DNA of 64,000 bases from Raja brachyura. Lineage: Eukaryota. The stretch is from positions 19,840,001 through 19,904,000 of the forward strand of contig OY740797.1 in the NCBI GenBank assembly GCA_963514005.1, written 5' to 3'. Every line of letters starts with the position of its first letter. The stretch's first letter is position 1. Positions 3,001 to 6,000 of the stretch are shown here, one piece after another. The position numbers were made by a program.

Positions 3001-6000
3001 AACTGCACTCAATTACATTTCTCAAAATGTCATTCCCGAGAGGACTCAAAGTGCCAGTGTTCAACTTGTTTATTAATATTGTAGCTTGCGATTCATTTGC
3101 AAAATCTCTCTTCCAAATGCGATCCATTTCTCACTTCCCGCCATCTTATTCCGTCTCCGTTATCACCGTTTCCGGCTTCCATATAGATTTCATGCAGCGA
3201 TAGCAGTGCCCGCCGTATATCCCAGGCAACCTGGCCTATGCGAGCACGTTGTAGTGGGACGAGTCTGTCGTCTGCCCTTATGCACTTACTTGTACTTTCA
3301 TTCTTTGGTCGCAATTTATAGTAGCGAAGTAACCGAGCAATCCGCATCACTTTGGGATACAAGGAGAGTAGAGCATCCGGCGGAACAGCACACAAGAATA
3401 AACTGCTAATCACACACAGGTACCGTTGGAGATTAGGATTGAACGCGATCAGGACGGAACTGTGAGACTGCAGGTTTACTCGCTGCGCCCCTTCCAATTT
3501 TAGAGGTGACAGGCAAAATGGTTTCCTTCTGCGCTGCAAATTGCAGCCTGCAATGTTCTAAAATTATATGGCATGAAACGGATATCTGATGACTGTATAA
3601 TTTCTGTACTTGTCCAACCCTATTGGAAACAAGAACAATAGCTTCACCTACCGGTTCTACGCTATGACTTGCTTCCACGGAGTTTGCATTAACACCTACA
3701 CGAAAAAAAAAGAAATCTCGAATAATATTTTAATGTCAGGAAAATCTAAGTTGCGCATTAGATTATAATCACATCTACTGCCTATGGACCCTTGAAGGCA
3801 GGCAACAATCCCGTATACACATCGGAGTACCACCGCCACAATGTAATGTGTTGGACATTACCTTCATATATACCATCCGAGTTAGATCTGGACAATCGGA
3901 GGATGCGAAGGTCTAAACCAAATACCTCATGCTTCAAAATCTGACTTTAAAGCTAATCAATACGCTAAGAATACAGATGTTTGAAACACACATACTCGAT
4001 GGATGATTGAATAATTCGAAAGGGCAGGGGAAATAATTGTAGTTTAACTTACAACTAATTACTAGTATTGCTTTGGTTTCTTGTTTCAATGATTCTCAGA
4101 ATGCACCATCCGCTTTTCTATCAACGGTTGTATTAAATGAAAAGTCAATCAAGGTTCTTACCTCGTTGTGCCTTTAATGCGAATCTTGTCAAAATTATAA
4201 GCAGAACTACAATTGACAGTCCGCGCACGACATAACCGAGAATTTGAGTTTTGTCCGTGGTTTCTGGATATGGCGAAAAATGAGAACGGTGAAACATAAA
4301 TACACAGACAGGGACCGAGACAAGAAGGCAGAGCAATCGTTCAATATTTTCCGCACAAAGATTTTATGACTGCCACATGGCACGCATTGTACGGTAATGG
4401 CGAATTTATAGAACAGACATTATACGGTGGCTCTTTGCAGAGGTTTGGTTATTAAGTTAAGATGACAGTTTAATTTCATTTTACAAAACTACGCCCGGTA
4501 GTTTGACAACAGTTTAAAAAGTCAGAATGCATTCTATATTCTGGATCTTACACCCTGGACCCGCCACCGCAGGTTCCAGTAAATATGAAAAGGAACTGGA
4601 TTTTTGTGTTTGCTCAACTATTTAATTGTATTAGAAAATAGACACAAAAGACAGGCAACATCTCTGGAGAGAAGGAATGAGAGACGATTCGGATCGAGAC
4701 CCTTGTTCAGATTGTATTTCTGGGCAGGCTGGAGTCTGCGTAAAATGCCTCCAGGCTTACCTTGCTCAAAAATGTAGCTGAAACTGGCAGGGACTGTAAG
4801 AGATACGTGTGATATGATCGAATTTGATCTACCGCCCCAATATCATATGTAACTGGCTCCAGTCTTACCTTGGCCCAGGATGTAACTGAAACTGGCCGCC
4901 ACCTTCAGGGAGATATGTGATACCAGGCAGGTGTAAATATCTTTGCCCTCGCCAGGTTGCGTTATTTCCAAAAAACTAGAAGCCACAAACAATCCTTCTC
5001 CGCTCCGTGTTTTCACAGTTTCGATTCCAGTGCGAATTACCTCGTTATTTCTTAGCCAGAATATTTCTAATTTCTCCGGATAAAAGGCGCCAGTTTTGCA
5101 CACAAGTTTCCGTGGAGAGCCAAGTCCTTCAGCAGGAACAATTTTCAAGGGAGTTGGGGGATCTTAAGCAAAAAAAAACCACAGAATTTAAGGAGTTCCA
5201 ACATAAACTCTGTTCAGAATGGACGTTCCCGGGTATCGCGAGAAAGTGTTTGCCAGAAGCTTGCCGTGATTATTTAAAAGTGGCCATATTCGGATCATTC
5301 ATATGTTACAAAAAAAAAGAGCCATCATAATTGAAATATAACAGATGTGTATAGTGTGGTGGCATGAAGCGGTTATACATGAAGGTTAATGATTAATCTC
5401 GTTAGCTGTTTAAGTCGGGTTTGAAGAAGGGTTTCGGCACGAAACGGTGCCCATTTCCTTCGCTCCATAGATGCTGCTGCATCCGCTGAGTTTCTCCGGC
5501 ATTTTGTGTACCCTCAGCTGTTTAAGTAGTATATGAACGAAATCTCCTCAACCTGGTCAAAAAGACCCACTTCAAAATGTAATCACTACTCTACTCAATC
5601 CCACCTGCGCGAGATAACCAATTATGAGGTGTTTGCGCAGTAATCAACCAGAACCAGAAGCAGATATGGGTTTGAACTGCCGATCACAACCATTTACCAG
5701 CACATGAAACAAAGGCTGGGGCATTTTTCTCGCGCATTGAATGCTAATATTCAAAAATAGTGGTATCTATTACAAGCAATCTACGAGCGCACTTATTCAA
5801 TATCAGTGTGTAGGAAAGAACTGCAGATGCTGGTTTAAACCGAACATATGCTGGAGTAACTCAGCGGGACAGGCAACATCTCTTCGGAGAAGGAATGGGT
5901 GACGTTTCGGATCGAGGTTTGAAGAAGGGTCTCGACCCCAAACGTCACTCATTCCTTCTACCCAGAGATGCTGCCTGCCCCGCTGAGTTACTCCAGCATT

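What the first reader, a model, noticed from the sequence alone, without database searches (positions are those of the whole stretch)
4761..4869. Copy A is a chimera: divergent L-V-C1 grafted onto a duplicate of copy B's TM and tail, with a C1 scar at the breakpoint
Seen: 18-4814 is a near-identical duplicate of 25889-30185, and the TM exons differ at only 2 of 34 aa. Homology stops at 4814, inside what is the C1 exon in B, leaving a 54-bp B-type C1 3' end with an intact donor. Only ~55 bp away sits a different, complete C1 exon. The A and B V domains are only ~55-60% identical by my hand count, and their upstream introns do not align. Inference: a deletion or unequal crossover fused the ectodomain of one paralogue to the signalling module of another, i.e. 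exon shuffling that couples a different ligand-binding head to an activating TM, as happens in paired-receptor families.
Basis: partly seen in the sequence, partly recalled or inferred. Interest (0 to 1): 0.72.

Follow-up and report, generated by a model that had tools for sequence, protein, structure and literature searches.

The report
Hybrid immune receptor gene with breakpoint scar
In a ray or shark-like fish, one immune receptor gene carries an old, divergent outer part joined to a recent copy of its neighbour's membrane and tail part, and a 54-base leftover marks the join; this is a familiar way for such receptor families to evolve.

Summary
The window is cartilaginous-fish DNA (batoid-like), not human. 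It holds two minus-strand genes, A and B, of a V(J)-C1-TM receptor family.

- **Recent 3' part.** From 4814 downwards, A copies B's 3' part: 3944 of 4143 aligned bases are identical (95.2%, K2P 0.050), evenly over exons and introns.
- **Old 5' part.** Above 4814 only the V and C1 exons align, at about 70% nucleotide and 58-61% amino-acid identity (dS 0.74-0.93).
- **Scar.** Positions 4761-4814 match the last 54 bp of B's C1 exon at 53 of 54 bases and keep the donor. They lie 54 bp below A's own complete C1 exon.
- **Type of join.** It is out of register, so it is non-homologous. This excludes plain gene conversion.
- **Trees.** Per-exon trees place A's and B's heads in different old batoid lineages.
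- **Shared module.** It has an Arg in the membrane span where 20 of 22 batoid relatives have Gly. Its tail is short and ends at a TGA, followed by a decayed ITIM exon.
- **Correction.** The duplicate does not end at 18. It resumes across a 4.9 kb B-only insertion and runs off the window.

Still untested: the mechanism, A's expression, the "activating" role and the assembly. This is a known kind of event (FCGR2C-like).

The parts
7561..7615 (-). Copy A leader exon (ATG at 7615, 18 codons plus 1 base, donor GT at 7560-7559)
   Evidence: Leader-profile hit E 0.012; sequence read
7061..7366 (-). Copy A V exon, V-set with a J-like G-x-G motif in the same exon; A-type (old lineage)
   Evidence: Splice sites read; Pfam V-set 9.9e-09; 58.2% aa identity to B
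4869..5162 (-). Copy A's own complete C1 exon (A-type), donor CAAG|GTAAGA with last exon base 4869
   Evidence: Pfam C1-set 2.4e-11; alignment to B's C1; 60.8% aa identity to B, dS 0.93
4815..4868 (-). 54 bp remnant of the A-type intron between A's C1 donor and the junction. Only its first 12 bases resemble B's intron start. It has no other match in the window
4761..4814 (-). C1 scar: the last 54 bp of a B-type C1 exon with an intact donor. It is intronic in A. It holds a cryptic acceptor (AG at 4795-4794) that would give an in-frame 33-nt mini-exon 4793-4761
   Evidence: 53 of 54 identical to B 30132-30185; reading frame from the sequence
4162..4263 (-). Copy A TM exon (B-type module) with Arg inside the hydrophobic span
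   Evidence: Sequence; 97 of 102 nt identical to B; TM alignment with homologues
3652..3695 (-). Copy A first cytoplasmic exon (phase 1 in, phase 0 out, donor GTAGGT)
1209..1265 (-). Copy A last coding exon: ACC AAA TGA (stop at 1259-1257), followed by a decayed ITIM-exon remnant
   Evidence: tblastn lead; frames; top score of 127,888 six-frame windows against an ITIM-exon profile
1..4814 (-). The whole B-derived block in A, running off the left edge of the window. It includes an A-only 636 bp stretch at 1942-2577
32210..32264 (-). Copy B leader exon
31698..31994 (-). Copy B V exon (B-type)
   Evidence: groups with Mobula P0032/P0033
30132..30428 (-). Copy B C1 exon; its last 54 bp (30132-30185) are the source type of the scar
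29522..29623 (-). Copy B TM exon (Arg in the span)
29012..29055 (-). Copy B first cytoplasmic exon
27195..27251 (-). Copy B last coding exon (TK-stop) plus ITIM remnant, identical to A's
25889..30185 (-). Donor-type block in B that is homologous to A 18-4814
20993..25891 (+). 4.9 kb insertion present only in B's 3' flank (its ends are uncertain by the 3 bp ATT). It has inverted termini plus an internal complementary region. A has the empty site
   Evidence: only a weak Phage_int_SAM_4 hint, E 0.11
20976..20995 (-). Place where A/B homology resumes beyond the insertion (identical to A 1-20)

Best explanation
Copy A is a hybrid gene in a multigene family of cartilaginous-fish V(J)-C1-TM receptors. 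Its leader, V and C1 exons and the first 54 bp of the next intron belong to an old 'A-type' lineage. From 4814 downwards it is a recent copy of neighbour B's 3' part. That copy starts 54 bp before the end of B's C1 exon. It then runs through the TM exon, two short cytoplasmic exons, the 3' UTR and the flank, and off the window. The two parts were joined by a non-homologous, out-of-register break and join (shown). The most economical route is a single unequal exchange between tandem genes that made a tandem duplication with a hybrid gene at its junction, as for human FCGR2C (inferred). The 54 bp B-type C1 fragment is a leftover that now lies in A's C1-TM intron. The expected mRNA splices 4869 to 4263, 4162 to 3695 and 3652 to 1265 (inferred from phases and consensus sites). 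The product would put an A-type head on B's module, which has an Arg in the membrane span and a 17-residue tail with no ITIM. Such a module most likely signals through an adaptor chain with an acidic membrane residue, as in SIRP-beta or activating KIR (inferred, untested). The module itself descends from an inhibitory form: its stop codon sits where long-tailed relatives have Arg, and a decayed ITIM follows it.
For: Sharp identity step at 4814/30185, with 3944 of 4143 (95.2%) identical below it and about 70% in exons only above it. Scar 53 of 54 identical, with donor. A's own complete C1 lies 54 bp upstream. dS of V 0.74 and of C1 0.93, against block K2P 0.050, a 15- to 19-fold difference. Trees: win_B V with Mobula P0032/P0033 97/92; win_A C1 sister to the main stingray clade 97/92; the AU test rejects A+B as one clade for C1 (p 0.020). 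All six A exons are open, with canonical splice sites and matching phases. Arg where 20 of 22 batoid relatives have Gly. TK-stop matches the C-terminus of the stingray short forms P0002, P0004 and P0025. The ITIM remnant ranks first of 127,888 windows. Paired forms exist in relatives: Mobula P0021 (ITIM) and P0023/P0028 (Arg near the start of the TM, short tail) share near-identical V and C1. Private insertions in each copy (636 bp in A, 4.9 kb in B) and 5% divergence argue for two real loci.
Against: No reads or transcripts were available, so neither the assembly at 4700-5200 nor the splicing is verified. The AU test for V is not significant (p 0.069), and both AU tests were set up after a first tree had been seen. 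A's place in the V tree is weakly supported (84/81 and 85/28). The TM exon is no better conserved between A and B than the introns (97 of 102 against about 95%), so there is no sign of selection on the module since the event. The parental A-type gene with its own 3' end has not been seen. The far end of the duplicate is outside the window, so the single-exchange model is not demonstrated. The two 54 bp remnants are equal in length, which no model here predicts.
Confidence: 0.8

Rival explanations
1. Duplicative insertion ('exon capture'): a copy of B's 3' part was inserted into A's C1-TM intron. A's own TM and tail exons would still lie further downstream, beyond the window. Transcripts would end in the inserted block because it brings its own splice acceptor and polyA signals.
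For: The junction is non-homologous. The block carries AATAAA/ATTAAA words at 921, 900 and 659. The window ends before the far end of the block.
Against: The homology continues at least to the window edge across B's private insertion, so the block is large and includes intergenic sequence. That fits a tandem duplication at least as well. Nothing in the window shows A-type 3' exons.
Confidence: 0.2
2. A 108 bp tandem microduplication across A's C1 donor, followed by gene conversion of everything downstream by B. Under this model A always had a homologous 3' part in place.
For: The junction joins +54 to -54 relative to the C1 donor, as the boundary of a 108 bp tandem duplication would. Family members within a species show homogenised domains.
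Against: It needs two events, with the conversion tract starting exactly at the duplication boundary. The block is evenly 95% identical through introns and flank for more than 4.8 kb, which is long for a conversion tract.
Confidence: 0.06
3. Assembly artefact: a chimeric join, or a falsely duplicated haplotype, placed a copy of B's 3' part behind A's C1.
For: This is a multigene, repeat-rich region. No reads could be examined.
Against: The two copies differ by 5%, by 21 indel events and by private insertions of 636 bp and 4.9 kb. The join is not in shared or repeated sequence on which an assembler could overlap. The N runs are at 34733 and beyond.
Confidence: 0.06
4. The structure is real but A is a dead by-product: it is not expressed, or it is mis-spliced through the second strong donor. 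Use of the scar donor at 4761 after read-through would meet TGA at 4842-4840.
For: Two equally good donors lie 108 nt apart. There is no excess conservation of the TM exon.
Against: All A exons are open with intact Cys and Trp landmarks and canonical sites. At the block's rates (21 indel events in 4143 bp over two lineages), my own arithmetic gives about 1.7 indels expected in A's 655 bp of 5' coding sequence if it were drifting. None is seen, which is weak evidence (P about 0.2).
Confidence: 0.25

Closest known systems
Human FCGR2C, a hybrid of FCGR2B (5' exons) and FCGR2A (last 2 exons) made by an unequal crossover that also made a segmental duplication (PMC6786274, passages read)
   Same: An immune receptor gene whose ligand-binding exons come from one paralogue and whose TM/signalling exons come from a neighbour, so that the head is coupled to the opposite kind of signal. 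The hybrid sits beside a retained parent.
   Different: In FCGR2C the repeats are more than 98% alike. Here the join is out of register and leaves a duplicated exon fragment. The second parent and the full extent of the duplication are not visible in the window.
SIRP-alpha/beta/gamma paired receptors of tetrapods (general knowledge; SIRP review PMC12975943 seen as a search listing and abstract only)
   Same: V(J)-type first domain followed by C1-set, ITIM-bearing long forms, short-tailed forms with a basic residue in the membrane span, and short-tailed uncharged forms. NCBI's automatic names for many relatives are 'SIRP-like'.
   Different: There is one C1 domain, not two. No SIRP chain is among the 60 best PDB sequence matches shown for either exon. 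The automatic names are inconsistent (NCR3LG1-like, TCR-beta-like, MHC II-like, tapasin-related-like). CD47 binding is unknown.
UrIg and UrIg2 of elasmobranchs (PMC12227049, abstract and section 7 read)
   Same: Non-rearranging elasmobranch genes with a VJ domain in one exon, a split leader and C1-type domains.
   Different: Nurse-shark UrIg2 has nine C1-type domains (section 7 read), and the paper describes UrIg as conserved in its number of C domains. The genes here have one C1, a TM and ITIM or short tails.
Paired activating/inhibitory families such as KIR, LILR, Siglec-5/14, CEACAM and Xenopus FcR-like (general knowledge; listings and abstracts of PMC3533184, PMC4042635, PMC5112662 and PMC2413239 seen)
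   Same: Near-identical heads on opposing tails within a species. Activating forms derive from inhibitory ones by a membrane charge plus tail truncation. Heads and tails are shuffled often.
   Different: A different domain make-up (VJ-C1), a cartilaginous-fish host, and a break-point relic still present.

Membership tests
Chondrichthyan V(J)-C1-TM receptor family (no published name found; automatic names SIRP-like, NCR3LG1-like and others) | Split leader, then a V-set domain with a J-like G-x-G motif encoded in one exon | tested here: met
   Leader exons with phase-1 donors; V-set hits; motif seen in the alignment
Chondrichthyan V(J)-C1-TM receptor family (no published name found; automatic names SIRP-like, NCR3LG1-like and others) | A single C1-set domain closely related to that of family members | tested here: met
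   C1-set 2.4e-11 and 1e-07. 19 of 110 candidates matched (E down to 4e-38), all chondrichthyan, up to 71% identity. Inside the batoid clade with support 100/99
Chondrichthyan V(J)-C1-TM receptor family (no published name found; automatic names SIRP-like, NCR3LG1-like and others) | Homologous TM exon and cytoplasmic exon set | tested here: met
   The TM aligns column by column with 22 batoid and 4 shark homologues. The first cytoplasmic exon and the TK-stop end match the short forms. ITIM-exon remnant
SIRP family proper | V domain followed by two C1-set domains | tested here: not met
   Only one C1 exon per gene; tblastn with the window's own exons and with 19 homologues finds no further Ig exon
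SIRP family proper | Closest sequence relatives are SIRPs; binds CD47 | tested here: inconclusive
   No SIRP among the 60 best PDB matches shown for the V or C1 exon. The Atlas gives only generic V-set clusters. Ligand binding is not testable here
Paired activating/inhibitory receptors | A charged residue in the membrane span plus a short tail without an ITIM | tested here: met
   Arg where 20 of 22 batoid homologues have Gly, 1 Lys and 1 Asp. The tail ends at TGA, and the downstream motif has decayed to M-T-Y-L-P-A
Paired activating/inhibitory receptors | An inhibitory counterpart with a like head in the same genome | not testable with these tools
   Only two family genes lie in the window, and no eukaryotic genome collection was on hand. 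Relatives do show such pairs (Mobula P0021 against P0023/P0028)
Paired activating/inhibitory receptors | Association with an ITAM adaptor through the membrane charge | not testable with these tools
   Needs co-expression or co-precipitation
Hybrid gene made by unequal exchange (FCGR2C type) | 5' part like one paralogue, 3' part like another, with a sharp switch | tested here: met
Hybrid gene made by unequal exchange (FCGR2C type) | Both parental genes retained, and the duplicated unit spans the intergenic region | tested here: inconclusive
   B is retained. Homology runs into B's flank across the 4.9 kb insertion up to the window edge. The A-type parent would lie outside the window
Gene conversion tract | In-register replacement, with no duplicated or extra sequence at the tract end | tested here: not met
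   The join is 108 bp out of register: A keeps its own C1 3' end plus 54 bp of intron, followed by a second, B-type C1 3' end
UrIg/UrIg2 | VJ followed by several C domains | tested here: not met
   One C1 exon only; definition taken from PMC12227049 section 7

The most novel reading that the evidence does not exclude
The window catches the birth of a paired receptor with its break point still intact. One non-homologous unequal exchange between tandem genes would have duplicated about 20 kb, kept both parents, and created a new gene that puts an A-type head on an Arg-bearing, ITIM-less module. In relatives, A-type heads mostly sit on uncharged or ITIM-bearing modules. That module had itself just been converted from an inhibitory one by a Gly-to-Arg change and a CGA-to-TGA stop. 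If so, this unnamed VJ-C1 family is a cartilaginous-fish counterpart of SIRP- or KIR-type paired receptors. Head-tail shuffling by illegitimate recombination would then already operate in the oldest living jawed vertebrates.
Probability: 0.3. Interest if true: 0.6.

Novelty: new member of a known kind. Interest (0 to 1): 0.45.

Why it matters
Paired immune receptors are thought to arise when an inhibitory receptor's head is coupled to an activating tail, often under pressure from pathogens that exploit the inhibitory form. Most documented cases are mammalian and are inferred from sequence similarity alone. Here the break point survives as a physical relic: a duplicated exon end at an out-of-register join. 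This allows the event to be dated relative to the heads and reconstructed if the flanking genome is read. It also draws attention to a VJ-C1 receptor family of sharks and rays. My six literature searches found no paper describing that family, which carries only inconsistent automatic names. The kind of event itself is well known, so the value is illustrative and comparative rather than conceptual.

Tried and rejected
- **Plain gene conversion.** Rejected because the join is out of register.
- **Block ends at 18/25889.** Rejected. A 1-20 recurs exactly at 20976-20995, next to the other end of a B-only insertion.
- **TE-mediated join.** The 54 bp A-type remnant has no other match in the window. 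The nearby interspersed repeat of about 90 bp (A 4650-4709, B 29992-30080) lies inside the block, not at the join. I saw no Helitron-like or TIR ends at the block's start when reading.
- **Microhomology at the join.** It cannot be scored without the parental A-type intron. The base on the A side does not match B's upstream base.
- **UrIg membership.** Rejected.
- **Search with B's V exon.** The 'longer' protein search gave 0 hits from 53 candidates.
- **Tail-profile search.** A whole-tail HMM against six-frame pieces scored the ITIM remnant at only E 11, because the stop splits it. The ungapped profile scan settled the point.
- **Remnants of middle tail exons.** I looked for them in the 2.4 kb intron and found nothing significant.
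- **Rfam.** 0 matches.
- **Pfam on ORFs of the 4.9 kb insertion.** Nothing at E 0.001 or below for the two ORFs tried, and only weak hints.
- **Atlas search with A's V exon.** Only generic V-set clusters.
- **Not available.** The genome, phage, plasmid and E. coli collections hold no eukaryotic DNA. The rest of this genome and sister species therefore stayed unchecked.
- **Supplements.** No supplementary files were consulted; family tables in the supplements of PMC12227049 might list related genes.
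Full report
**What the window is.** The window is not human. The exons discussed here find relatives only in sharks, rays and chimaeras, with stingrays, devil rays and a sawfish closest. With A's C1 exon, 19 of 110 candidates matched at up to 71% identity. With a 13-protein family alignment, 48 of 7999 scored candidates matched: 47 are named chondrichthyan proteins and one is an unnamed record that I did not fetch. 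N runs lie at 34733-34886, 36279-36486 and 55399-55526, far from the finding, and were left alone. I never joined exons into a spliced protein, so no search, fold or tree here rests on a joined model.

**The observation.**
- Self-comparison confirms that A 18-4814 duplicates B 25889-30185.
- A global alignment gives 3944 of 4143 aligned bases identical (95.2%, K2P 0.050) with 21 indel events.
- Identity is even over the scar-TM intron (456/483), the TM exon (97/102), the next intron (444/466), the first cytoplasmic exon (43/45 columns) and the long intron (1661/1746).
- In 100-column windows, identity is 95/100 just below 4814 and 63/91 to 71/100 above it. A 4815-4913 has no partner in B.
- Between A 4815-10000 and B 30186-34700, a sensitive blastn finds only two alignments: the V-exon region (69% over 391 columns) and the C1 exon (71.5% over 260). 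The introns share only an interspersed repeat of about 90 bp.

**Gene models (minus strand).**

| Exon | Copy A | Copy B |
|---|---|---|
| Leader | 7615-7561 | 32264-32210 |
| V | 7366-7061 | 31994-31698 |
| C1 | 5162-4869 | 30428-30132 |
| TM | 4263-4162 | 29623-29522 |
| Cytoplasmic 1 | 3695-3652 | 29055-29012 |
| Last coding exon starts | 1265 (stop at 1259-1257) | 27251 |

All splice sites are canonical and the phases match. Pfam calls V-set/I-set for the V exons and C1-set for the C1 exons. Only these two family genes lie in the window. Summing the exon lengths gives about 269 residues, which is like the 270-271-residue stingray short forms.

**The junction.** Read in gene orientation:
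- A's own C1 exon ends CAAG|GTAAGA, with its last exon base at 4869.
- 54 bp of intron follow (4868-4815). Only the first 12 bases resemble B's intron.
- At 4814 the sequence switches to B-type C1 coding sequence. The 54 bp at 4814-4761 are 53 of 54 identical to B 30185-30132 and end in CAAG|GTAAGC.
- A's own last 54 C1 bases are clearly different from the scar.

The join therefore links position +54 after a C1 donor to position -54 before a C1 donor, 108 bp out of register. No homologous exchange or ordinary conversion gives that result. It is a non-homologous or microhomology join. Microhomology cannot be scored without the parental A-type intron. The equal lengths of 54 bp remain an unexplained coincidence.

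**Age contrast.**
- A and B share 57 of 98 V residues (58.2%; dS 0.74, dN/dS 0.42) and 59 of 97 C1 residues (60.8%; dS 0.93, dN/dS 0.28).
- The block differs by K2P 0.050. This is 15- to 19-fold less than the exon dS values.

**Per-exon trees.**
- I used all batoid proteins fetched plus six shark proteins as outgroup: 28 homologues for C1 and 27 for V.
- I left out the chimaera, bamboo-shark and further cow-shark hits, and P0048.
- Rows with fewer than 75 aligned residues dropped out: P0042 for C1, and P0034 and P0037 for V.
- P0040 has no V domain and entered the V tree as a spurious long branch.
- B's V groups with Mobula P0032/P0033 (97/92). A's C1 is sister to the main stingray clade (97/92). 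A's V joins the same clade only weakly (84/81 and 85/28).
- Forcing A and B into one clade costs 9.7 log-likelihood units for C1 (AU p 0.020) and 13.5 for V (p 0.069). I set up these tests after seeing the first tree.

The two heads are thus old, separate lineages, while the tails are recent copies.

**What the shared module is.**
- The TM exon aligns column by column with its relatives. At the window's Arg, 20 of 22 batoid proteins have Gly, one has Lys (P0022) and one has Asp (P0037). P0031 has no TM and was dropped.
- The first cytoplasmic exon ends in phase 0. The next exon begins ACC AAA TGA.
- Stingray short forms end in the same T-K-stop (P0002, P0004, P0025). Long forms read T-K-R-N-G-A-D-K-L-T-Y-A-A-L at this point. 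The TGA therefore sits where Arg is.
- The following peptide is a decayed ITIM exon. Against a profile of seven homologues it is the best of 127,888 six-frame windows (24.6 against 18.3 for the next; mean -20, sd 7.9).
- The module is therefore an ex-inhibitory one that gained a membrane charge and lost its ITIMs. The usual reading is 'activating'. This is an inference; no adaptor was tested.
- Relatives do form pairs. Mobula P0021 (ITIM) and P0023/P0028 (Arg near the start of the TM, short tail) have near-identical V and C1.

**The far end.**
- Homology seems to stop at A 18 / B 25889. However, A 1-20 recurs exactly at 20976-20995.
- Between 20993 and 25891 lies an element present only in B's flank. 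Its left end is perfectly complementary to 25567-25589, and its right 79 bp are 96% complementary to 25587-25665.
- From memory, this is the layout of DIRS-type retroelements. Pfam gives only a weak integrase-N-terminal hint (E 0.11).
- A has the empty site with a single ATT. The duplicate therefore continues into B's flank and off the window.

**Mechanism.** The join itself is shown; the route to it is inferred. One unequal, non-homologous exchange between tandem genes would yield B, then the intergenic region, then the A-head/B-tail hybrid, then a second intergenic copy, then an intact A-type gene. This parallels FCGR2C (PMC6786274, passages read). It predicts a second A-type gene to the left of the window. 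The alternatives are an insertion into A's intron, a deletion after an earlier duplication of B, and a 108 bp microduplication followed by long conversion.

Misassembly is unlikely for three reasons: the copies differ by 5%, each has private insertions, and the join is not in shared sequence. It is not excluded without reads.

**The scar today.** It most likely sits unused in the intron. Two side readings follow from the sequence:
- Read-through past 4869 meets TGA at 4842-4840. Use of the scar's donor would therefore truncate the protein.
- A cryptic acceptor (AG at 4795-4794) would give an in-frame 33-nt mini-exon that repeats 11 stalk residues.

Both need transcripts to test.

**Known relatives and literature.**
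- The family is not UrIg/UrIg2. Nurse-shark UrIg2 has nine C domains (PMC12227049, abstract and section 7 read).
- It is not SIRP proper, because it has one C1 and no SIRP appears among the 60 best PDB matches shown.
- Six literature searches, with passages read from PMC10751288, PMC13262535 and PMC6795676, turned up no description of this family. Subscription journals and supplements were not searchable.

**Verdict.** The chimera interpretation is supported. The activating role and the exact mechanism remain inferences. This is a clear new example of a known kind of event.

Noticed in passing
window 20993-25891 (+): A 4.9 kb insertion lies only in B's 3' flank. Its left end (20993-21015) is 100% complementary to 25567-25589, and 25813-25891 is 96% complementary to 25587-25665. 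It also holds a 192-bp tandem duplication at 21620-22004. The layout is DIRS-like (from memory). Pfam gives only a weak Phage_int_SAM_4 hint. A has the empty site.
   Followed up: partly
window 1209-1256 and 27195-27242 (-): A decayed ITIM exon follows the stop codon of both genes. The TGA sits where long-tailed relatives have Arg, and the ITIM core now reads M-T-Y-L-P-A.
   Followed up: yes
window 1052-1351 vs 27038-27337: A 300-bp patch around the last coding exon and the start of the 3' UTR is 298 of 300 identical between A and B. About 14 differences would be expected at the block's average. This could reflect constraint or a later small conversion.
   Followed up: no
window 1942-2577: 636 bp are present in A's long cytoplasmic intron but absent from B, with no other copy in the window. 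Insertion in A or deletion in B is undecided.
   Followed up: partly
window 4650-4709, 5418-5509, 5848-6008, 11143-11229, 13142-14057, 29992-30080, 56443-56534: An interspersed repeat of about 90 bp occurs often in inverted pairs. One copy lies about 50 bp below the C1 donor in B and in A's scar region. No Rfam match.
   Followed up: partly
window 18718-20930 (-), 48573-52399 (+), 59113-59637 (+), 63328-63852 (-): Non-LTR retrotransposon remains. Endonuclease and reverse-transcriptase domains were found in 4 of 10 ORFs scanned. There is also an inverted 860-bp duplicate, 58965-59825 against 64000-63137, at 90%.
   Followed up: partly
window 12000-14000, 54400-54900, 61100-61600: G+C-rich stretches (up to 57% in 2-kb windows) give long proline- or glycine-rich ORFs on both strands. 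They are probably simple or low-complexity repeats.
   Followed up: no
window 4761-4868: The A-type intron remnant and the B-type C1 remnant are both exactly 54 bp. No model considered here predicts this.
   Followed up: no
homologues P0022 and P0037: The TM position that is Arg in the window is Lys in one Mobula protein and Asp in one Hemitrygon protein. Both have truncated tails. This suggests the site gains a charge repeatedly.
   Followed up: partly
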